DNA from: a virus
Taxonomy: Duplodnaviria; Caudoviricetes
Direction: 5' to 3' (one strand)
DNA: 64,000 nucleotides
Virus record (IMG/VR): IMGVR_UViG_3300025021_000154
Location: 1-64,000 of that record
Shown here: positions 856 through 18,674 of the stretch, one piece after another
Layout of the letters: each line of letters begins with the position of its first letter
Numbering within the stretch: the first letter of the stretch is position 1
The notes under the pieces: model-generated
What the model saw: the letters and a program-made list of their open reading frames with translations, nothing else
The model's database searches: none
What the model was told of the DNA's origin: nothing
Program-made: the position numbers and the translations under genes

Positions 856-2438
856 CGGCTTGCCCTCCGCTCAGTGACTTCGCATGCCAGACCGGCCAGC
901 TCGGCGATGAGTGTCGTCAGTCCGTTGGTGCGCAGCTCCATGTCGATTCCGGTCTCGCGAATCTCGACTCTGTCTACCAGGAGGCGGATGAGCCGGTTCC
1001 GCTCTATCGGAAAAAGGTCCTCCCAGAAGCCCTCGACATTCTGGAATGCCTCCGAGACATCCAGCTCCGTGATGCTGTTCCCCTGGTAGGCTTTGCATCG
1101 CTCGCTCACATGCGTCAGTTGTTTCGAGAGCTCGACCGCCTGGCGGTTGACGGTCGTCAGCATCTCGGCCTTGCCCAGCTGGTCGTTACCGGGTTTCATC
1201 AGTTCGATGGCTTGTTCCCGAGCCTGTGACAGTTCCATTTCGAGTTGGGTTTTCTGCTTGAACAGCCGTTCCCGCTCTGCCTGCTCGATGTCACGGGCCG
1301 CGAAGTAGGTCTTGGCCACCAGCGTCGGCGTGCGAAACACCGCGCTCAACTGCTCGACCACGGCCTGCTCGATGTCCCCGGCGGGAATCCGTTTGAGCGG
1401 GCAGCGGCTCACAGTCCGTTTGCTGTCTTTCTCGCAGATGTAATAGGTGTAGTGGCGACCGTTTTTGCGGGTGTAGGTCGGCCCCATCGAGCATCCGCAG
1501 TGGCCGCAGCGGATGACGCCTTTCAGAGGGGCGACCATTTTGGTTCTGGCCATGGAAATCTTGACCGGTTTGTTGTCTGCCAGGCTGGCCTGCACCTTGT
1601 CCCAGGTCGCCCGGTCGATGATCCCATCCTGCTCACCGGGGTAACTGCGGTCCTTATGGGCGATCTCGCCGATATAGATCCGGTTGTTCAGCAGCCGGTA
1701 AATATGGGCGGTATTCCACTCGGAGCCTTCGCGCACCTTGCCTTTCTTGGTGGTCCAGGCCTTGGTGCGGTATCCCTGCTCGTTCAGTTCCTGCCCCAAC
1801 TTCTTGGCCGAGCCGATCTGGATGAACCGGCGGAAGATGTACTGCACCGTCTTGGCTTCATCCGGGTTGACCAGCAGTTTCTTGTTTTCTCGGTCGACGT
1901 CGTAACCGAGGATTGGCACACCGCCGCAGTATTTCCCCCGGCGCTTGGCGGCCGCCACCTTGTCCCGGATACGCTCTGCGATGACCTCCCGCTCGTACTG
2001 GGCAAAGGTGATCAGGATACCGAGAAACATCCGGCCGGTTGGATCGGTGGTGCTGAAGTGCTGGGTGACCGAGACAAAGCTGACACCCTTTTCGTTGAAC
2101 ACCTCAATCATCTTCATGAAGTCGAGCAGCGAGCGCGAAAGCCTGTCGATCTTATAGACCACGATTACGTCGATCTTCCCGGCGTCGATATCCGCCAGCA
2201 GACGGCGCAGCGCCGGGCGCTCCATGGTGCCGCCGGAAAATCCGCCATCGTCGTAGCGGTCCGGCAATGCTATCCAGCCCTGCATCCTCTGGCTTTCGAT
2301 GTAAGCCTCAGCCGACTCCCGTTGCGCATCCAACGAGTTGAATTCCTGTTCGAGTCCTTCTTCGTGGCTCTTGCGCGTATAGATGGCGCAGCGAAGAGTC
2401 TTGTTTCTGCCCGGCACGACATTGGCGTTATCGAGCAT
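852..2438 (-). CDS. Large serine recombinase (integrase)
   Basis: AIYTRKS catalytic motif, KIDRLSRS, recombinase domain, zinc ribbon CGHCG...YYIC..C, coiled coil. Confidence 0.95.
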   Translation of the reverse strand: MLDNANVVPGRNKTLRCAIYTRKSHEEGLEQEFNSLDAQRESAEAYIESQRMQGWIALPDRYDDGGFSGGTMERPALRRLLADIDAGKIDVIVVYKIDRLSRSLLDFMKMIEVFNEKGVSFVSVTQHFSTTDPTGRMFLGILITFAQYEREVIAERIRDKVAAAKRRGKYCGGVPILGYDVDRENKKLLVNPDEAKTVQYIFRRFIQIGSAKKLGQELNEQGYRTKAWTTKKGKVREGSEWNTAHIYRLLNNRIYIGEIAHKDRSYPGEQDGIIDRATWDKVQASLADNKPVKISMARTKMVAPLKGVIRCGHCGCSMGPTYTRKNGRHYTYYICEKDSKRTVSRCPLKRIPAGDIEQAVVEQLSAVFRTPTLVAKTYFAARDIEQAERERLFKQKTQLEMELSQAREQAIELMKPGNDQLGKAEMLTTVNRQAVELSKQLTHVSERCKAYQGNSITELDVSEAFQNVEGFWEDLFPIERNRLIRLLVDRVEIRETGIDMELRTNGLTTLIAELAGLACEVTERRASR

Positions 2439-2955
2439 TGGCTCCTCCTTCGGCTTTCTTGCCGTAAACCTTTTTCAACCCGAAAAAAACCTTCCCATTC
2501 CACCGCGTGCCGGTGATCTCTCTTGCCACCGCACTGAGCGACCGGAACGTGCGTCCGTCGAACTCATATCCCTCCGCTTGGACGGTCACCTCGTAGCGCT
2601 GGTCATTCCAAATCCTCACCAGCCTGGTCCCCGGGAGGATGGTCTCATTCGCTTTTCGCTCTTCGGGAATGCGTCGGTTGACGGTCGCCACCAGATCGCC
2701 CTTGGCCACCTGACCGAGGTGTGTCTTGGCCCGCTCGGAAAGCCCTCCGTAGAAAAGCTCCTGGATGCGATAGCCCAGCCGTTTGACCAGGAATTGCTTC
2801 TTGTATTGGGGCGGTTCGCCTCCGTAGAGGTCGAACCACTTTTCGCGAAGCTGATCCAGGCTCATGGATTGTAGCAGCGCCATCTGCCGCAAGACCGAGT
2901 TTCTGGTTCGGTCCTGGGTTTTGCCGCCCGGGGCGGCTGTCTGTAACTCATTCAT
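2428..2955 (-). CDS. DUF2924 domain protein
   Basis: LPGTRLVRIWND...FDGRTFRSLSAVAREITGTRWNG..FFGL signature; ATG 2955 is 6 nt from AAGGAG (track starts at TTG 2961). Confidence 0.9.
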   Translation of the reverse strand: MNELQTAAPGGKTQDRTRNSVLRQMALLQSMSLDQLREKWFDLYGGEPPQYKKQFLVKRLGYRIQELFYGGLSERAKTHLGQVAKGDLVATVNRRIPEERKANETILPGTRLVRIWNDQRYEVTVQAEGYEFDGRTFRSLSAVAREITGTRWNGKVFFGLKKVYGKKAEGGANAR

Positions 2956-2989
2956 TTTCAACTCCTTATTTTAGGTTCCGGACGAGTTG

Positions 2990-3232
2990 TCATGAATGAA
3001 CGCTCTGTTCGCGCAACGAATCAAGTCCTTCTCTGGTCGCGGTCGAAGAAACTTGGAAAATTTGTAACTCACTGCCGCCACATGACTTTTTCGCCTTTCT
3101 ACGAAGGACTGCCGTTGCCAGTATCGAAACAGCAGCCTGGAGCCTGGCATCGCTCGAAAGCCGTTCCGGATTTTCATCTTTGCCGTGGATTTCCGCCCCC
3201 GGCTCATCTCTCAGCTCCTGTACATCCAACAT
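2990..3232 (-). CDS. Small hypothetical protein of DUF2924/recombinase modules
   Basis: 80 aa; RLQAAVSILATAVLRR...LDSLREQSVH; first gene of the leftward operon. Confidence 0.6.
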   Translation of the reverse strand: MLDVQELRDEPGAEIHGKDENPERLSSDARLQAAVSILATAVLRRKAKKSCGGSELQIFQVSSTATREGLDSLREQSVHS

Positions 3233-3381
3233 CGAACACCTCCGGTTAGACCCGGGGGCTGGGCGTGGATGCCAGAAAACGTCGGCGGTCGGGATGCGCG
3301 TTTGATGGCACCCACAACCGCCTCAGCTCCGCTTCTGGTCGGCTATCTGGTTACGTCCGGCTCTATCCGGACTTGCGTTGG

Positions 3382-3413
3382 TTACTTACCGGAGATCTTT
3401 GCAAGGTGACGGA
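3382..3413 (-). promoter_or_regulatory. Phage-sigma promoter motif copy 1 (leftward)
   Basis: Minus strand TCCGTC-N14-TCCGGTAAGTAA. Confidence 0.7.
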
Positions 3414-3439
3414 ATCAGACGAAAAGTCCTGCTTTTTTA

Positions 3440-3468
3440 TTGACCTGATATTCATCAGGTCGTATATT
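3440..3468 (+). promoter_or_regulatory. Sigma70 promoter with palindromic operator
   Basis: TTGACC-N17-TATATT; perfect inverted repeat GACCTGAT-attc-ATCAGGTC at 3442-3461. Confidence 0.75.
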
Positions 3469-3523
3469 CTTGATCATAAACTGGGCTTAATCCGCTCAGT
3501 TGCTACGACACGGAGCAATCGTC

Positions 3524-3757
3524 ATGGGAAAGAAAAAGACCTCAGGAATAACGGACCCTCAAGCGAACACGCTCAGGGTCATTTGCGAAATCATCAATGA
3601 GAAGGGGTTGCCACCAACAGTGAAGGAGTTATCGGAAGCCCTGGGTATCAGCCATGCGAGCGCTCACGAGCAGATCGCTCAATTGGTCCAGAAAGGCTAT
3701 TTAAAGAAAGAGGCTCGAAAGGCCCGGAGCATCGTCGTTATCAGAAGGCCCGAATAA
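3524..3757 (+). CDS. LexA-type N-terminal winged-helix protein without peptidase domain
   Basis: ITDPQANTLRVI...GLPPTVKELSEALGISHASAHEQIAQLVQKGYL..EARKARSI; ATG 3524 preceded by GGAG. Confidence 0.8.
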   Translation: MGKKKTSGITDPQANTLRVICEIINEKGLPPTVKELSEALGISHASAHEQIAQLVQKGYLKKEARKARSIVVIRRPE

Positions 3758-3790
3758 CGATGCCGGGCAACGAAAAATAAGGAGAACGCC

Positions 3791-4582
3791 ATGGGGCACG
3801 TCAGACTTGGAACTCTTCCAAGATCGAGGGCATGGAAAGAGGTGGTAGGCCTGATCACGGCCGGTGCCGACGTGTCCCAAATCGCCAATGCCACTATCAG
3901 AGCAGCCGATAAGGCCTTTTCCTTTGTGCTCAACGATGAAGGTTACACCGAGGCCGTTTGGCTGATGACTCAGCTCGCCATTGCAGCGAAGAAGGATAAC
4001 TTCAGTGAACATCTGCAGTCCGTCGGTATCAACCTGCCTCAAGATACATCTCTCCCTGACGTTGCCGCCGCCGTCACGGAAGCGTTGGACCGAAAACTAG
4101 AGTCAAATGGTGGCCGTTCTTCCGACTTGGCTGAAATATCTCAGCGAGCATTGGTCGGAGCTTTGGTGGAGCACATCTCCCCCAAGCTGCCGTCTCTGTT
4201 TACGCCAGGGCCAGATGATGTCCGGGGCGCACTGGGGGCCCTCGGGAAGAAGCGGGAATTTGGAGAGCTGTCTCAGACATTTTTTTCAAAGCTTACCAAC
4301 GAGAGTATGAACTACTTCTTGTCAAAAACGCTGGCTACCCATCTGGGTGAGGGCCAGCGTTTTGCCACTATGAATGAAATGAATCAATTCGAGAAAGCCT
4401 TGGAGACGCACTGCAGAGAGGCATCCCTGATCGTGAAACAGTTTTCGGCAGACTGGTTTTCGAAGCACAGATACGAAGAAGGCGACGACATTTCCAGGGA
4501 GTCGTCTAACGGCTTCGCCTCCTACGCGCTGAAGAAAATGAAGGACGAATTGAAAGAAGGAGCGCGAGCCGATGCAAGATAA
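3791..4582 (+). CDS. QatB-like partner of the QueC-family enzyme
   Basis: 263 aa, mostly helical, begins MGHVRLG, overlaps the QueC-family gene start. Relation to QatB inferred only from position and the N-terminal Gly. Confidence 0.55.
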   Translation: MGHVRLGTLPRSRAWKEVVGLITAGADVSQIANATIRAADKAFSFVLNDEGYTEAVWLMTQLAIAAKKDNFSEHLQSVGINLPQDTSLPDVAAAVTEALDRKLESNGGRSSDLAEISQRALVGALVEHISPKLPSLFTPGPDDVRGALGALGKKREFGELSQTFFSKLTNESMNYFLSKTLATHLGEGQRFATMNEMNQFEKALETHCREASLIVKQFSADWFSKHRYEEGDDISRESSNGFASYALKKMKDELKEGARADAR

Positions 4583-6674
4583 GCGATACGTCATCTGTGG
4601 AAACGCTCCGGCGGATGGATTTGAGGAAAATCCTGACCGCGATCTGCGTCTGCGACTTTGGGGCAACGACGGTCCAGACAAGATTACCCTCCGAATCGAG
4701 GACATCCATAAAAAGATGTGCAAGGACGTGCCGGACGCCTTTCAGGACCTGCTAGAAATTGCCACCTACATTTACAGCGCCGATCAGGCCACCCGCCGAG
4801 GAGCCGATGACGTTGATTCTTTTGGTCATGGCTGGCGCAGGGATTTGCACTTCATCATCCCGGTGCGAAATCCAGGCTTTTGGAATGGAGCCGAAATCCA
4901 GCAGGCACTGCGATCCACACTGGGCTTCCTGTCAGACGACAACTACCACTTCGAATTCGTTAAATCGCAGGAGGCTCATTCATTCCAGAGCTACCTCGAT
5001 TTCAATGATGACGGAAGGCTCTTTGGTTACCCTGAGCAGGTTGTGATGTTCTCCGGAGGTTTGGATTCATTGGCGGGAGCCATCGACGAGGTTCTCAATG
5101 AGAAACACAAGGTCGTCCTGGTCACCCACAAGTCGACCCCGAAACTCAACAAGCGCCACCGCCGACTGGAAAAGATGATTGCCGACAAGGCCGGTGAAAA
5201 CGCCCCACTACACATCGGCGTCCGCGTCAACAAGAACAAGGAGCTGAACCACGATTATACCCAACGCAGTCGCTCCTTCCTCTATGCATCCATCGGGGCA
5301 ACTATCGCAAGCATGTTGAACTTGAAAAGCGTCCGTTTTTACGAAAACGGCGTCATCAGTCTGAATCTTCCGGTCTGCGCCCAGGTGGTTGGCGGGCGGG
5401 CCACGCGTACCACACATCCCAAGGTGATCCGAGGATTTCAGCAAATCATCAGCCTAGTTGCTGGCGAACCTTTCACGATTGAGACCCCCTACATCTGGAA
5501 AACCAAGGCCGATGTCATCGAGGTGATTACCAAGGCCGGATGCCAGGACATGATCGCGGTGTCGACCACCTGTACCCACACCTGGGAGATGACCAACCAC
5601 CATACGCATTGCGGAACATGTTCCCAGTGCATCGATAGGCGTTTTGCCATGCTTGCGGCCAAGGCCGATCAATTCGATCCAGTCGAAGCCTATAAGGCCG
5701 ATATCTTCACCCAAAGCAGAAGCAAGGATGAAGACAAGATCATGGCTGCCGCCTATCTGGAACGAGCCAATCAGGTTCGGGATCAGGATGACATCACCCA
5801 GTTCATTGCTCGCTACAGTGAGGTGAGCCGGGTTTTTCGCCATCTGAATGGAAATCCTGGTAGCGTGGCCCAAAGGGTATATGACCTTTATAAGCGCCAT
5901 GCCAAGGAGGTCTGCGAAGCGATGGACACCATGGTCGCCCGAAACATCACGGCCATTCGCCAACGGACACTGCCCGGAGACTGCCTGTTGAGAACGGTGT
6001 ACGAATCCGGTTCGGTGATCTCAGTCCCTGCTATTCCGGTTGAGGAGAAGCAGCCGGACAACTACTTCAGGAAGCGCGGCGGCGTGTGGGCTGCCCGCTT
6101 TAATGGCAACGCCGAAGTGCTCGTCACTGGTGTCGACAAAGGGGCCGAGTACATCAACTTTCTCTTGGGGAGACCCAACAAGGAAACTTCGGTCTATGAG
6201 ATCGTCTGCGGCTTTGCCATCGATAGCTGCAACACGTTTTTGAACTCCGACGAAACCGAAGATGGCTTCCAGGTTACCCAAGGAGTTCCGCTGGGCGATA
6301 CTGGTTTTGTTGCCGACCGCAAGGCCGTCGAGCAATACCGGGAGACTGCTCACGAACTCTTTCGAGAGATTGAAGACGCCCGGGCAGAAAACAACGATGC
6401 CGAGATTCAGCGGCTTGAAGAAGAAATGGCAAAGGTGACCACAGCGATCAACGAGGCTGTTGGCTTGGGTGGCAAACTCCGGAAATCCAACGACAAGCGA
6501 AAGAACGTCCGTGACGCCTTCCGGAACGCCGTAAACCGGGCCATCAAGTATCTGGAGAAGTACGACAAGCCGCTGGCTGCCCACCTGAAGGAATCCATTA
6601 AGTGTGGCAACGAACCGGTCTACCGGACCGAAGAGGAGATCGTTTGGGAGGTCCGCCCCATAGTCAACGAATGA
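4572..6674 (+). CDS. QatC-like QueC (7-cyano-7-deazaguanine synthase) family protein with extra C-terminal domain
   Basis: FSGGLDS PP-loop, RSRSFLY, ENGVISLNLP..TRTTHP, KTK, C..HCGTCSQC zinc site, N-terminal DLLEIA..YSADQ..WRR domain; about 210 extra residues at the C-terminus. Confidence 0.85.
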   Translation: MQDKRYVICGNAPADGFEENPDRDLRLRLWGNDGPDKITLRIEDIHKKMCKDVPDAFQDLLEIATYIYSADQATRRGADDVDSFGHGWRRDLHFIIPVRNPGFWNGAEIQQALRSTLGFLSDDNYHFEFVKSQEAHSFQSYLDFNDDGRLFGYPEQVVMFSGGLDSLAGAIDEVLNEKHKVVLVTHKSTPKLNKRHRRLEKMIADKAGENAPLHIGVRVNKNKELNHDYTQRSRSFLYASIGATIASMLNLKSVRFYENGVISLNLPVCAQVVGGRATRTTHPKVIRGFQQIISLVAGEPFTIETPYIWKTKADVIEVITKAGCQDMIAVSTTCTHTWEMTNHHTHCGTCSQCIDRRFAMLAAKADQFDPVEAYKADIFTQSRSKDEDKIMAAAYLERANQVRDQDDITQFIARYSEVSRVFRHLNGNPGSVAQRVYDLYKRHAKEVCEAMDTMVARNITAIRQRTLPGDCLLRTVYESGSVISVPAIPVEEKQPDNYFRKRGGVWAARFNGNAEVLVTGVDKGAEYINFLLGRPNKETSVYEIVCGFAIDSCNTFLNSDETEDGFQVTQGVPLGDTGFVADRKAVEQYRETAHELFREIEDARAENNDAEIQRLEEEMAKVTTAINEAVGLGGKLRKSNDKRKNVRDAFRNAVNRAIKYLEKYDKPLAAHLKESIKCGNEPVYRTEEEIVWEVRPIVNE

Positions 6675-6714
6675 CCCTGGGCCTTTCAGGAAGAAAAAAC
6701 TAAAAAAAATTTCC

Positions 6715-6752
6715 GCTACGCCAAATGTAGCTCTTGCGACGCCGGATGTAGC
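6715..6752. repeat. Two tandem 17-bp imperfect palindromes (candidate operators)
   Basis: GCTACGCCAAATGTAGC (6715-6731) and GCGACGCCGGATGTAGC (6736-6752). Confidence 0.6.
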
Positions 6753-6788
6753 GCCTTCCCCAATGAAGGCGCGATCCGGCGTTTTTTA
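6741..6788 (+). terminator. Intrinsic terminator/attenuator hairpin
   Basis: GCCGGAT..GCGCCTTC-cccaat-GAAGGCGC.ATCCGGC followed by a T run. Confidence 0.65.
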
Positions 6789-6847
6789 TTGGTCAACAGA
6801 GTGTTGGCCACCGGGCGTGCCAGAACTTCCGAACAAGGAGACTGGCA

Positions 6848-7174
6848 ATGGCACAAGTCAACAAAGCAACCCTCACCCCACCAAAGCGGCGACTCATCGA
6901 ATTGATGCAAGACATCAACTTCGGCCGCATCACCAACATTCCGGTTCACGACGGTGAACCGGAACTCACCCCTGACACGGTCATCGAGCGCGAAATCAAG
7001 CTGGGCGGACAGATCGGTCCCAGGCCTGAGCGCGACCAGGCTGACTTCACTCTCAAGCAAGAGGTCGTGATGCTGCTGGAGCAGCTCTCACAGATGGGCA
7101 GCGGAAAAGTCTGCGTAATCGAGATCAAGCATGGCCTGCCTTTCCTGATGCGCATCGAGGAACGGGCAGCCTGA
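6848..7174 (+). CDS. Hypothetical protein with an internal duplication (possibly DUF2292-like)
   Basis: LIELMQDINFGRITNIPVHDGEP vs LLEQLSQMGSGKVCVIEIKHGLP. Confidence 0.65.
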   Translation: MAQVNKATLTPPKRRLIELMQDINFGRITNIPVHDGEPELTPDTVIEREIKLGGQIGPRPERDQADFTLKQEVVMLLEQLSQMGSGKVCVIEIKHGLPFLMRIEERAA

Positions 7175-7226
7175 ACACGTAACGACCTTAACCCTTAGAC
7201 ACTGGACAACAAGCTGGACGCATGGC

Positions 7227-7364
7227 GGAGGCTGTTGTGGGTGTCGCCGAGCCGAATACGGCAATTGGCGGCGTACCTACGACCCCTTCGCCCACGCGAC
7301 AGCTTTGTCCTGTGATCTGGCCCGTGCCGACACCCACGCGGACCTCCTCCTCGCTCCGAGGAGG
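7227..7364 (+). ncRNA. Candidate structured 5' leader of the sigma gene
   Basis: 10-bp pairing 7237-7246/7328-7337, inner hairpins GCCG-aata-CGGC and GACA-gctt-TGTC, and an 8-bp hairpin occluding the SD. Confidence 0.45.
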
Positions 7365-7369
7365 CTCCG

Positions 7370-7954
7370 ATGGTTTCACACAATTCTTACGATGGCATCG
7401 ACAAGTATGCCGCCGATCTTATTCGGCACAAAGCACGTCAACTGGTCGGCAAGGCCGGATTTACCGAACACGACCGACCTGATCTCGAACAGGAACTGAT
7501 GATCGATCTGCTGCAACGGATGCGGCATTTCAACCCAGCCAAGGCCAAGAAGACCACCTTCATGGCGCGGATCGTCGAGCGTCACATCTCGACCATTCTT
7601 GAAGCCAGGTTCGCCCAATGCCGGGACTGGCGACTCTGCCAAACCTCACTCAACGAACCCCTGGACAACGGCGAAGGCGACACCACCGAGCGCATTGAGT
7701 TTCTTGATAGCGATGGCTCACTGGGAAGCCACCCAAGGATGACCAGGGAACGGGTCGCCAATGAAATCCGCATGGATCTCGACCGGGCGATTGCCTCATT
7801 GCCGGATGAGCTACGGGATCTGTGCGAACGCCTGCGCGACGACACCATGGCAGAAATCGCCCGGGAGATGGGCGTTCCCCGCACCACCCTCTACGACCGG
7901 CTGAGCAAACTCCGTGACGCGTTCCGCGAGGCCGGACTTGAGGACTACCTGTGA
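7370..7954 (+). CDS. Phage sigma70/ECF-like RNA polymerase sigma factor
   Basis: Region 2 (DLEQEL...FNPAKAKKTTFMARIV) and region 4 HTH (AIASLP...TMAEIAREMGVPRTTL). Confidence 0.85.
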   Translation: MVSHNSYDGIDKYAADLIRHKARQLVGKAGFTEHDRPDLEQELMIDLLQRMRHFNPAKAKKTTFMARIVERHISTILEARFAQCRDWRLCQTSLNEPLDNGEGDTTERIEFLDSDGSLGSHPRMTRERVANEIRMDLDRAIASLPDELRDLCERLRDDTMAEIAREMGVPRTTLYDRLSKLRDAFREAGLEDYL

Positions 7955-16731: not shown

Positions 16732-18078
16732 ATGATAGTCAGTTTCTCACTCGAAAACTGGATGTCCTTCCGCAGCCGGGTCACTTTTTCGATGGTCGCC
16801 AGTAGGGAGCGCCAGCACGGAGACAGGGTTCCCAAGCTCGGCAAGTACCAGACGAGAGTTCTTCCGGTTGCGGCAATTTACGGCGGCAACGCGTCGGGCA
16901 AGACCAATTTCTTCAAGGCCCTGAGCTTTGCAAAGGCGCTGGTCGTCAAGGGCACACAGCCCGACAGCCTGATCCCTGTCGAGCCGTTCCGGCTGGACGC
17001 CAAGGGGGCCGGACAGCCGTCGCGGTTTGGCTTCGAGCTGCTGATCGACGAGATCATTTACGAGTTCAGCTTCGCGGTAACCCGCAAGGCTATCCTGGAA
17101 GAAAAGCTGGTGGTGATCACGAGCACCAGCGAGAAGGTGCTCTATGACCGCCGCGAAGGAATGCCCAATTTTGACGATTCGTTGACCAAAGACCAATTCC
17201 TTCAGTTCGCCTTCAAGGGGACCCGGGACAACCAACTTTTCCTGACCAATTCCGTTTCTCAAAAGGTCGACAATTTTCGGCCGGTCTACGACTGGTTCAA
17301 GGACACGCTTGAGCTGGTTGCGCCCGACTCGCGTTTCGAGCCTTTCGAGCAGTTCCTCGATGAGGGGCATCCCCTCTATACCACCATGAACGAGATGCTG
17401 CCGCAGCTCGACACGGGGATTGCCCACCTGGGCGGCGAAGAGATCCCGTTCGAAAACATCCCTCTGCCGGAGCCATTGAAGACCAAACTCCAGGAAGATG
17501 TGAAAGAAGGCATGACTGTCCGGTTGATGACGGAACCTATCAACGAGCGGTTCATTGTCACCCGTAAGGGCGGTGAATTGATTGCGAAGAAGCTGGTGAC
17601 CTTCCATCCGAAGTCGGACGGAACAGAGGCCAAATTCGAGATCCGCCAAGAGTCGGACGGTTCACAGCGGGTCATAGACCTTCTGCCTGCTTTCCTTGAG
17701 CTTTCGGCGCAAACCTCAAAGAAAGTCTATGTCATCGATGAAGTTGACCGCAGTCTGCATACCTTGCTGACTCGACGACTGCTCGATGCATACTTGTCCA
17801 ACTGCTCCACGGAAACAAGGTCGCAGTTGCTGCTGACGACCCATGACGTTCTGCTCATGGATCAGCAGCTGTTGCGTCGAGACGAGATGTGGGTGGCGGA
17901 AAGAGACGCTTCAGGAGCATCGAATCTGCTTTCCTTCAGCGAGTACAAGGATGTCCGCTACGACAAGGATATCCGAAAAAGCTACCTACAGGGTCGGCTT
18001 GGAGGAATCCCTCGCATCTTGCTGGGAGGGACACTGACAAATCCCTGCCTCATGGAGGAAAGCGAGGGGGATGAGTGA
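16732..18078 (+). CDS. rloA: AAA_21 ABC-type ATPase (RloA/AbiLi-like)
   Basis: [34 protein letters not shown]. Confidence 0.85.
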
Positions 18079-18674
18079 TGCCGCCGAAAAGACGTAAATT
18101 TCAGAGACCACTCGGCGAACGGCGCTATCGAAAACTGTTCGTCCTCGCGGTTGAAGGCGTCAAGACCGAGCCACAGTATTTCGCCATTTTCAACGATCAA
18201 CATTCGGTGATCCGAGTGAATTGCTTGAAAGGCAATCATGACAGCTCGCCGCTACAGGTCTTGAAGCGCATGGAAGACCACCTCAAGCAGGAAGCACTGA
18301 GAGCCTCGGATGAGGCATGGCTGGTGGTGGACAAGGACCAGTGGACCGATGAGCAGTTGGCCCAGCTTCACGCATGGTCGCTGGGGCATGACAATTACGG
18401 ATTTGCCCTCAGTAATCCCAAATTCGAGTATTGGCTGCTACTCCACTTTGAAGACGGCACAGCTATCGGTTCGTCACGTGAGTGTTCCGACCGATTAAAG
18501 CGACATCTACCCGATTACGACAAGGGCATCGATGTTCGCAAAATAACGCGGGACAGGATCGACGACGCTATCCGCCGCGCCAGAGTTCGAAACAATCCTC
18601 CCTGCGTCGACTGGCCACGTGCCCTTGGTGGCACGACGGTCTACAATTTGGTCGAAAACATCCTCCAAGCCTGA
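18075..18674 (+). CDS. rloB: RloB family protein (AbiLii-like)
   Basis: [32 protein letters not shown]. Confidence 0.88.

What the first reader, a model, noticed from the sequence alone, without database searches (positions are those of the whole stretch)
3791..6674. Two-gene QatB/QatC-like deazaguanine module lacking QatA and QatD
Seen: a QueC-family enzyme with QatC-type motifs, coupled to a helical protein starting Met-Gly; no KAP ATPase, TatD, CD-NTase, TGT, queD or folE in the window. Known: QueC-like enzymes in qatABCD and type IV CBASS act in anti-phage defence and have been reported to attach a 7-deazaguanine to the N-terminal Gly of a partner protein. Inferred: a minimal prophage-borne protein-deazaguanylation system, with MGHVRLG as the acceptor tail, used for superinfection defence or for regulation.
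Basis: partly seen in the sequence, partly recalled or inferred. Interest (0 to 1): 0.8.

Follow-up and report, generated by a model that had tools for sequence, protein, structure and literature searches.

The report
Prophage QatB/QatC-like protein-tagging cassette
A prophage carries a small repressor gene followed by remote relatives of the QatB-QatC anti-phage pair (a helical protein with a fixed Met-Gly-His start and a QueC-like enzyme with an extra tail domain), an undescribed natural minimal variant of a known defence system that lacks the QatA and QatD genes.

Summary
Window 3791-4582 encodes a 263-aa all-helical protein starting MGH. Window 4572-6674, overlapping it by 11 nt, encodes a 700-aa QatC-family PP-loop enzyme.

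The enzyme matches the QatC model at E 1e-59 but scores 202 bits, under the curated 280. Its model superposes on crystal QatC (Foldseek E 5e-16). It keeps SGGLDS, TRTTHP and the four zinc cysteines.

The partner matches no QatB sequence model. Its predicted structure nevertheless superposes on crystal QatB over 208 of 215 residues (Z 14.4, next hit 6.5). Gly2 is invariant across a family of about 1,500 clusters.

No QatA, QatD, CD-NTase, TGT, QueD or FolE lies in the 89-kb virus record. None of QatA, QatB or QatD lies in 1.1 Mb of flanks around 70 related loci.

The unit is really three genes, because a 77-aa LexA-like winged-helix gene precedes the pair. It sits in the integration block of serine-integrase prophages. 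Residues ~460-700 of the enzyme are a conserved extension with no known relative.

Most likely it is a repressor-controlled, QatBC-like N-terminal-glycine tagging system used by lysogens against other phages. The chemistry and the target are inferred. I rate it a new variant of a known kind. This scan met the same cassette on three other genomes.

The parts
3440..3468 (+). Sigma-70-like promoter (TTGACC, 17 nt, TATATT) with a 9-bp-arm palindrome (3441-3462) between the hexamers; candidate autoregulated promoter of the cassette
   Evidence: 10 of 12 consensus matches; the only promoter-like site in 2900-7500; sequence. A consensus match only; function is inferred.
3524..3757 (+). 77-aa LexA-type winged-helix protein without a peptidase domain; first gene of the cassette
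   Evidence: PHROGs phrog_3502 3.9e-20 and phrog_362 'transcriptional repressor' 1.3e-7. Found 36-50 nt upstream of the partner gene in 53 of 59 genome loci and in 41 of 49 virus contigs. Its residue 2 varies (MGKKK or MSKRK), so it does not look like a second substrate.
3791..4582 (+). 263-aa QatB-fold protein; invariant Gly2 in the motif MGHxRLGxLPxxxxW; proposed protein substrate
   Evidence: Z 14.4, rmsd 3.8 A, 208 of 215 residues against QatB chain 9y01_A. No QatB sequence model matches; hhalign probability 1-20%.
4572..5951 (+). QatC-family PP-loop ATP pyrophosphatase core (residues 1 to ~460) of the 700-aa protein
   Evidence: Invariant in the family: SGGLDS 161-166, R232/R234, E258-N259-G260, T278-R279-T280, H282-P283 (T281 in at least 90%), K310-T311-K312, and C334/C347/C350/C353. 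Foldseek 9y01_B E 5.1e-16, TM 0.67 normalised by the target.
5949..6674 (+). C-terminal extension (residues ~460-700) absent from canonical QatC. The model shows three strands plus two helices (495-550), a disordered acidic linker (549-583) and helices (583-675) that include the invariant basic stretch DKRKNxRDxFRN
   Evidence: No Pfam or PDB-profile match beyond coiled-coil noise; nothing by ESM features. Kept down to 36% identity but replaced by an unrelated tail in a Leptospira plasmid pair.
6715..6752 (.). Two 17-bp palindromes (GCTAC-N7-GTAGC and GCGAC-N7-GTAGC) 21 nt apart, just after the enzyme's stop codon; probably the operator of the phage early operon rather than part of the cassette
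   Evidence: 88-95% nucleotide identity in most of the proteobacterial loci among the 47 cassette loci that have a site, where the proteins are about 66% identical. The same architecture also occurs in virus contigs with no cassette within 3-8 kb.

Best explanation
This is a three-gene cassette expressed from the prophage: a small LexA-like repressor, a QatB-fold protein and a QatC-family enzyme. It most likely works like the QatB-QatC core of qatABCD. After methionine removal the partner exposes Gly2. The enzyme uses ATP at its PP-loop to adenylate a carboxylate, and the alpha-amine of Gly2 attacks it, leaving an N-terminal adduct. The carboxylate would be 7-carboxy-7-deazaguanine if it follows Cap9 and the one report for QatB; its identity is open. 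The tagged complex then blocks an infecting phage, protecting the lysogen. The cassette stands where prophages keep exclusion genes, in the integration block beside the serine recombinase, under its own repressor. The extra C-terminal domain may take over sensing or output roles that QatA and QatD serve elsewhere. Shown here: gene structure, family and fold assignments, conserved motifs, synteny, and the absence of the other Qat genes. Inferred: complex formation, the modification and its chemistry, the defence phenotype, and the role of the tail domain.
For: Enzyme. QatC models match at 1e-59 and 9.3e-51. PDB QatC chains match by sequence and by fold. The QatC-specific motifs are invariant in the family.

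Partner. It has the QatB fold, Z 14.4 over 97% of the crystal chain with the next unrelated hit at 6.5. The weak hhalign alignment, E 1e-3, is co-linear with that superposition. An ESM-feature neighbour cluster carries the QatB Pfam family in 15% of its members. Gly2 is invariant and MGH starts 111 of 127 full-length representatives, plus 6 with GTG/TTG starts. The motif persists at 24% overall identity. The disordered tip of residues 1-11 followed by helix 1 matches the E. coli QatB description, where a loop of residues 2-10 inserts into QatC (PMC13376578).

Coupling. The short overlap and the gene order are kept in 58 genome loci and in 49 of 49 virus contigs, down to 36% identity.

Precedent. 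Truncated operons with only qatB and qatC fully protect against lambda-vir, and a G2D change or PP-loop mutations abolish defence (PMC13279940). [quoted passage not shown]

Place. In beta- and gammaproteobacterial loci the cassette is the last prophage gene before host gyrA, and many virus contigs end right after it. One Stenotrophomonas genome holds both this cassette and a full qatABCD, so the two are not redundant copies.
Against: There is no functional data for this subfamily. The QatC score is under the curated cut-off, and QatB sequence models do not see the partner. The Thr-x-Thr site argues that the acyl substrate may not be CDG, and QatC activity has not been reconstituted in vitro (PMC13279940). 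The partner lacks the 30-90-residue disordered tail typical of QatB. No complex model could be made with these tools, so whether Gly2 reaches the active site is untested. The deep linkage to the integrase block and the nearness to the early-operon operator would equally fit a role in the phage's own control. No cultured phage carries the cassette.
Confidence: 0.58

Rival explanations
1. The cassette is part of the prophage's own lysis-lysogeny or integration control. The enzyme's C-terminal domain binds DNA or a phage regulator, and tagging of the partner is a switch that feeds into early-gene or recombinase expression.
For: A serine recombinase with DUF2924 lies within about 3-4 kb in 44 of 67 genome loci and 43 of 49 virus contigs, down to 36% identity. 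The block of c3, recombinase, DUF2924, wHTH, partner and enzyme appears inverted as one unit between two prophage layouts. In this window the enzyme gene ends 40 nt before a strongly conserved pair of palindromes that heads the genes for a 108-aa protein, a sigma factor and replication proteins. The C-terminal extension has a strand-strand-helix-helix unit and an invariant basic helix. The cassette's repressor lacks a RecA-cleavable domain.
Against: In the proteobacterial layout the cassette lies 3.0-3.5 kb from the palindromes, on the far side of the recombinase and next to host DNA. Palindromes with the same or closely similar spacers occur in virus contigs with no cassette within 3-8 kb (L201, L185, L198, L208), so another protein probably binds them. 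No DNA-binding family matches the extension. The Leptospira pair has a different tail and no recombinase nearby. The characterised relatives are defence proteins.
Confidence: 0.22
2. The enzyme is an ordinary or phage-type QueC that makes preQ0 for tRNA or for deazaguanine DNA modification, and the upstream gene is unrelated.
For: Databases annotate the family as '7-cyano-7-deazaguanine synthase'. The Pfam QueC model matches residues 283-360. PHROGs files it under 'QueC-like queuosine biosynthesis'.
Against: The QueC equivalog TIGR00364 scores 33.8 bits against a cut-off of 150.3. The QueC substrate motifs are replaced by the QatC set (PMC13329287). E. coli QatC does not complement a queC deletion (PMC13329287). 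No QueD, FolE, TGT or DpdA-type gene is in the record. The partner is fixed next to the enzyme with an invariant Gly2.
Confidence: 0.03
3. The conserved Gly-His N-terminus serves another purpose, such as metal binding or recognition by a different host enzyme. Alternatively the pair acts as a phage counter-defence that tags a host protein rather than its own partner.
For: His3 is conserved in at least 90% of representatives whereas QatB has Thr-Ser there. N-terminal Gly-His peptides are known copper ligands (my own knowledge, not tested here). The module is phage-encoded.
Against: The fold match to QatB, the translational coupling to a QatC-type enzyme and the parallel with QatB Gly2 inserted in the QatC active site (PMC13376578, PMC13639016) explain the motif more simply. 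Nothing here points to a host target.
Confidence: 0.07

Closest known systems
QatB-QatC core of the qatABCD anti-phage system (Gao et al. 2020; structures 9y01/9y02, 9vlk, 9zee/9zef; PMC13279940, PMC13376578, PMC13639016)
   Same: The enzyme has the QatC fold with its N- and C-terminal elaborations, the PP-loop, the Thr-x-Thr-Thr-His-Pro loop and the Cys4 zinc site. The upstream, translationally coupled helical partner has the QatB fold, an exposed N-terminal Gly and a conserved Pro/Trp a few residues later. A two-protein core has been shown sufficient for defence in truncated operons.
   Different: qatA and qatD are never adjacent. The enzyme scores under the family cut-off and carries a conserved extension of about 240 residues. 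The partner is invisible to QatB sequence models, starts MGH rather than MGTS and has a tip of about 10 residues rather than a 30-90-residue disordered tail. A dedicated winged-helix gene precedes the pair. The cassette resides in prophage integration blocks.
Type IV CBASS Cap9-CD-NTase deazaguanylation (Wassarman et al., bioRxiv 10.1101/2025.04.06.647259; structure 9nto)
   Same: A QueC-family enzyme acts on the N-terminal Gly of a partner protein encoded beside it. The P0002 model still aligns to Cap9 (9nto_B, Foldseek E 9.7e-3).
   Different: There is no CD-NTase, no Cap10/TGT and no cyclic-nucleotide effector. Cap9 keeps the QueC Tyr/Asp site for CDG, which this enzyme lacks. Cap9 is about 185 aa, this enzyme 700 aa.
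Canonical QueC (7-cyano-7-deazaguanine synthase, TIGR00364; structure 3bl5)
   Same: Rossmann-like PP-loop ATP pyrophosphatase core and a zinc-binding Cys cluster.
   Different: The QueC catalytic signature is absent, the score is far below the cut-off, there are large extra domains, a fixed protein partner, and no queuosine or dpd genes nearby.
Prophage exclusion operons carried in the immunity/integration region (for example lambda cI-rexAB; my own knowledge)
   Same: The genes sit in the lysogeny block of a temperate phage, are transcribed with or under a small repressor, and are dispensable cargo that decays in some copies.
   Different: There is no sequence or mechanistic relation. The analogy concerns position and logic only.

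Membership tests
QatC (NCBIfam NF041925; QueC-family enzyme of qatABCD) | Scores above the curated equivalog cut-off of the QatC model | tested here: not met
   202.5 bits against a cut-off of 280, E 1e-59, model positions 10-358 of 398. Canonical QatC genes score 313-545 bits, the long form 224-230 bits.
QatC (NCBIfam NF041925; QueC-family enzyme of qatABCD) | SGGxDS pyrophosphate loop and a Cys4 zinc site | tested here: met
   S161-G-G-L-D-S166 and C334, C347, C350, C353 are invariant in 24 family members and aligned with canonical QatC.
QatC (NCBIfam NF041925; QueC-family enzyme of qatABCD) | QatC-specific motifs: Thr-x-Thr replacing the QueC Tyr/Asp, HP, RxRxxxF/Y, ExG, P(x)4TK, D(x)4R...WxR | tested here: met
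   T278-R-T280 and H282-P283 (T281 in at least 90%), R232-S-R234-S-F-L, E258-N-G260, P306...T311-K312, D71...R76...W88-R-R90 (with a 4-residue insertion) are invariant. The motif list is from PMC13329287 and PMC13279940.
QatC (NCBIfam NF041925; QueC-family enzyme of qatABCD) | QatC three-dimensional architecture (QueC core plus N- and C-terminal elaborations) | tested here: met
   AlphaFold2 model (pLDDT 72) against 9y01_B: Foldseek E 5.1e-16, TM 0.67 normalised by the target, 490 columns.
QatC (NCBIfam NF041925; QueC-family enzyme of qatABCD) | Encoded in an operon with qatA (KAP NTPase) and qatD (TatD nuclease) | tested here: not met
   No match in the 89-kb record. No tblastn match in 1.12 Mb comprising 70 loci and the window.
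QatC (NCBIfam NF041925; QueC-family enzyme of qatABCD) | ATP-dependent modification of the partner's N-terminal Gly | not testable with these tools
   Needs co-expression and mass spectrometry. No complex prediction tool was available.
QatB (Pfam PF28083, NCBIfam NF041924) | Matches the QatB sequence models | tested here: not met
   No NCBIfam, PADLOC or Pfam hit at E up to 1. NF041924 finds nothing in the record. It also misses the homologue in a genome where it finds the true QatB at 3e-76. hhalign probability is 1.3% and 20%.
QatB (Pfam PF28083, NCBIfam NF041924) | QatB fold: ten-helix globular domain | tested here: met
   VIA-align Z 14.4, rmsd 3.8 A, 208 of 215 residues, model 10-262 against chain 64-287 of 9y01_A; next unrelated hit Z 6.5. 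Foldseek ranking and the representative-set search did not surface the match.
QatB (Pfam PF28083, NCBIfam NF041924) | Conserved N-terminal Met-Gly with Gly2 exposed after Met removal | tested here: met
   G2 is invariant in 76 diverse members. MGH starts 111 of 127 representatives. Residues 3-4 are His-x rather than the Thr-Ser of QatB.
QatB (Pfam PF28083, NCBIfam NF041924) | Long (30-90 aa) disordered N-terminal tail | tested here: not met
   Only residues 1-11 are predicted disordered and helix 1 starts at residue 12. The shorter E. coli QatB inserts just residues 2-10 (PMC13376578), so a short tip may suffice.
Type IV CBASS (Cap9 / CD-NTase / Cap10) | A CD-NTase substrate and a TGT-like Cap10 next to the QueC-like gene | tested here: not met
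   No SMODS (PF18144) or TGT (PF01702) match in the record.
Canonical QueC (TIGR00364) | Scores above the equivalog cut-off and keeps the QueC catalytic signature | tested here: not met
   33.8 bits against 150.3. The Tyr/Asp substrate site is replaced by Thr/Thr.

The most novel reading that the evidence does not exclude
The long QatC-type enzyme and its QatB-fold partner form a prophage-encoded sensor-switch. N-terminal tagging of the partner, read out through the undescribed C-terminal domain, would control the prophage's own early genes or integration block. A protein-nucleobase (or other acyl) conjugation would then act as a gene-regulatory signal and not only as an immune effector.
Probability: 0.15. 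Interest if true: 0.85.

Novelty: new variant of a known kind. Interest (0 to 1): 0.62.

Why it matters
What QatC attaches, and how tagged QatB stops a phage, are open questions in three 2026 structural papers, where the reaction resisted reconstitution. This cassette is a natural minimal version. It is widespread: the partner family spans about 1,500 clusters at 50% identity across many phyla. In a sample of 400 gammaproteobacterial species it was about as frequent as canonical QatC (2 genomes against 3). It may account for part of the roughly two thirds of QatC-cluster genes that do not sit with qatA and qatD (PMC13329287).

Three things follow. The conserved core of the system is the QatB fold, Gly2 and the QatC core, while QatA and QatD are optional. 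The system has an added domain that may reveal the sensing or output step. And there is a second, very divergent enzyme-substrate pair with a short tail on which to try biochemistry and complex structures. Database names for the family ('7-cyano-7-deazaguanine synthase', 'hypothetical protein') are misleading and could be corrected.

Tried and rejected
Contexts came from the search for related loci instead.
- Foldseek against the PDB and the VIA search of 48,161 representative chains (best Z 6.8, dynamin stalks) did not show QatB for the partner. Only the VIA second look at Foldseek's top 1000 did. The PDB library does hold QatB-QatC (9y01/9y02).
- Sequence routes to QatB failed or stayed weak: HMM libraries, phmmer and a family profile against PDB sequences, hhalign.
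- A scan of virus contigs for canonical QatB found none. The diverse alignment A3 was too variable for a scan.
- The C-terminal extension gave no Pfam family beyond coiled-coil-type noise, no PDB profile hit and only unnamed ESM clusters under 0.9. Its resemblance to a winged helix is my reading of the model and the sequence pattern; it is not a match.
- I rejected the idea that the winged-helix protein, which starts MGKKK here, is a second Gly2 substrate. Most homologues start MSK.
- The idea that the enzyme's tail binds the tandem palindromes is weakened. The palindromes occur without the cassette and lie far from it in the proteobacterial layout.
- I rejected a canonical QueC or DNA-modification role.
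- No cultured phage carries the long enzyme. Only one plasmid, from Leptospira, carries a distant pair.
Full report
**Anatomy.** Window 3791-4582 (+) encodes a 263-aa protein, P0001, that starts MGHVRLG. Window 4572-6674 (+) encodes a 700-aa protein, P0002. The two frames overlap by 11 nt. Each start has an AAGGAG box 6-9 nt upstream. ATG 3791 is the first start codon after the preceding stop, so the Met-Gly start is not a matter of choice.

A further gene lies 33 nt upstream, at 3524-3757. It encodes a 77-aa LexA-type winged helix without a peptidase domain (PHROGs 3.9e-20; 'transcriptional repressor' 1.3e-7). It follows the only sigma-70-like promoter of the region, which has a palindrome between its hexamers.

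The window is part of an IMG/VR virus record of 89,086 nt, estimated 59% complete. Around the cassette lie a large serine recombinase and DUF2924 on the other strand (852-2961). Downstream lie a sigma factor, a PD-(D/E)XK nuclease, AAA_24, DUF669, a RecD2-type helicase and a primase.

**The enzyme.** P0002 residues 55-404 match QatC: PADLOC 9.3e-51 and NCBIfam NF041925 1e-59. The score of 202.5 bits is under the curated 280. Canonical QueC scores only 33.8 bits against a cut-off of 150.3. PDB sequences of QatC match at 2.6e-27 (9vlk_A) and 9.2e-20 (9zee_B).

An AlphaFold2 model built on 24 family members (pLDDT 72) aligns to QatC chain 9y01_B at Foldseek E 5.1e-16. Alignment with three canonical QatC proteins taken from full qatABCD loci shows the defining residues in place and invariant in the family. 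These are SGGLDS, RSRSF, ENG, TRTTHP, KTK and four cysteines. The motif lists come from PMC13329287 and PMC13279940.

The Thr-x-Thr is the QatC-specific replacement of the Tyr/Asp that recognises 7-carboxy-7-deazaguanine in QueC and Cap9. Canonical QatC ends near P0002 residue 460. The remaining ~240 residues are conserved within the family but match nothing known.

**The partner.** P0001 matches no Pfam, PADLOC, NCBIfam, PHROGs or PDB sequence. It belongs to a large family of uniform length: 324 close relatives and 1,499 clusters at 50% identity with E up to 1e-3. Gly2 and Trp222 are the only invariant residues among 76 diverse members. MGH starts 111 of 127 full-length representatives, and six more have GTG or TTG starts followed by Gly-His. 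A Leptospira plasmid homologue with 24% identity still begins MGHERLGILPKTRSW.

Profile-profile comparison with canonical QatB is weak: probability 1.3% with the shallow profile, and 20% (E 1e-3) with the deep one. The predicted structure has pLDDT 76, ten helices and a disordered tip at residues 1-11. It superposes on crystal QatB (9y01_A) with Z 14.4 and rmsd 3.8 A over 208 of 215 residues. The next unrelated chain scores 6.5, and the best of 48,161 representative chains scored 6.8. The weak hhalign alignment is co-linear with this superposition. I therefore read P0001 as a remote QatB homologue with a short tip. E. coli QatB likewise inserts only residues 2-10 into QatC (PMC13376578).

**Conservation of the unit.** Seventy loci in species-representative genomes carry a P0001 relative. 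They come from Desulfobacterota, Acidobacteriota, Planctomycetota, Verrucomicrobiota, and Alpha-, Beta- and Gammaproteobacteria. In 58 of them a 700-719 aa QatC-like gene follows with the same short overlap. Most of the others are cut by contig ends, and about eight are decayed copies.

All 49 virus contigs with a relative have the long enzyme directly downstream, down to 36% identity. Of these, 43 have the serine recombinase and 41 the winged-helix gene. The winged-helix gene is present in 53 of 59 genome loci with enough upstream sequence.

None of three diverse QatA, QatB or QatD proteins finds anything in the 1.12 Mb of flanks. One Stenotrophomonas genome has both this cassette and a complete qatABCD elsewhere, and three of five cassette-bearing genomes have no QatA-type match. 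In 400 sampled gammaproteobacterial species, three had canonical QatC and two had the long form.

**Position.** In the proteobacterial prophages the cassette is the last gene before host gyrA, and many provirus calls end right after it. In this window's layout the same block (recombinase, DUF2924, repressor, partner, enzyme) is turned round, so that the enzyme gene abuts the early region.

At that junction sit two 17-bp palindromes 21 nt apart (6715-6752). They are 88-95% identical in DNA in most of the proteobacterial loci, where the proteins are only about 66% identical. They always face the early genes. Palindromes of this kind, some with the same spacers, also occur in virus contigs that have no cassette within 3-8 kb. 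They are therefore probably the early operator of this phage group, bound by another protein, and not a part of the cassette.

**Mechanism.** The published facts are these. QatB-QatC alone protects against lambda-vir, and G2D and PP-loop mutants lose defence (PMC13279940). The QatB N-terminus lies in the QatC active site with Met1 removed (PMC13376578, PMC13639016). An NDG-modified QatB peptide was detected at low level (PMC13639016). The first substrate is still called unidentified (PMC13279940, PMC13376578).

By homology I propose the same two-step PP-loop reaction on Gly2 of P0001, and a defence role for the lysogen. The own repressor would keep expression in check. This is inference, and I give it about 0.58. 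The main rival is a role in the phage's own control through the unknown C-terminal domain. It keeps about 0.2 because of the deep linkage to the integration block. A plain QueC role is excluded for practical purposes.

**Novelty.** Full-text searches found no description of a QatC-like enzyme of this form. The QueC-family survey notes only that about one third of QatC-cluster genes sit with qatA and qatD (PMC13329287). This scan has met the same cassette on three other genomes, and those notes agree with what I found independently. One of them linked the enzyme's tail to the palindromes. My test shows that the palindromes also exist without the cassette.

Noticed in passing
window 6715-6752: Two 17-bp palindromes (GCTACGCCAAATGTAGC and GCGACGCCGGATGTAGC) lie 21 nt apart after an A/T run. 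They are far better conserved in DNA (88-95%) than the neighbouring proteins across phyla, and they always face the early/replication genes. The same architecture with other spacers is found in 105 virus contigs. They are a likely early operator of a large phage group; the binding protein is unknown.
   Followed up: partly
window 6848-7174 (+) versus 6716-7060 (-): The real gene after the cassette is the plus-strand 108-aa ORF. It has an AAGGAG box and is 43-49% identical over its full length in Planctomycetota loci. The longer minus-strand ORF is a shadow.
   Followed up: partly
window 16732-18674: An AAA_21 ATPase (448 aa, 3.8e-46) followed by an RloB-like protein (199 aa, 7.7e-36) sits inside the phage replication region. 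This is a second defence-type gene pair on the same prophage.
   Followed up: no
L244 5001-7645 (Leptospira noguchii plasmid NZ_CP091938.1): A distant pair: the partner has 24% identity with the same MGHERLG...W start, and a 621-aa QatC-like enzyme scores 187.6 bits. It sits next to an IS982 transposase. The enzyme's C-terminal ~170 residues are unrelated to the extension here, so the tail domain looks exchangeable.
   Followed up: partly
L136 (G027:C39) 1378-3914: Another QatC-like enzyme (455 aa, 129 bits) has a degenerate PP-loop (SGGMGS) and an upstream 180-aa protein that does not start Met-Gly. A 389-aa protein that by eye has an N-terminal helix-turn-helix and an HExxH-type peptidase motif follows it; no family search was run on it. 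Possibly a further variant.
   Followed up: no
L001-L020, L053 (genome loci): Copies about 90% identical to this cassette are reported from MAGs assigned to different phyla (Desulfobacterota, Verrucomicrobiota, Hydrogenedentales, Gammaproteobacteria, and a Fastidiosipila bin). A copy about 67% identical sits in a Bifidobacterium bin (L048). This means either very recent spread of one phage or mis-binned phage contigs.
   Followed up: no
L063, L068, L023, L061, L064, L067, L069: Decayed copies: an internal deletion joining partner residue 187 to enzyme residue 497 (Ralstonia), frameshifted enzymes, and partner fragments without an enzyme. The cassette is dispensable cargo in some lineages.
   Followed up: partly
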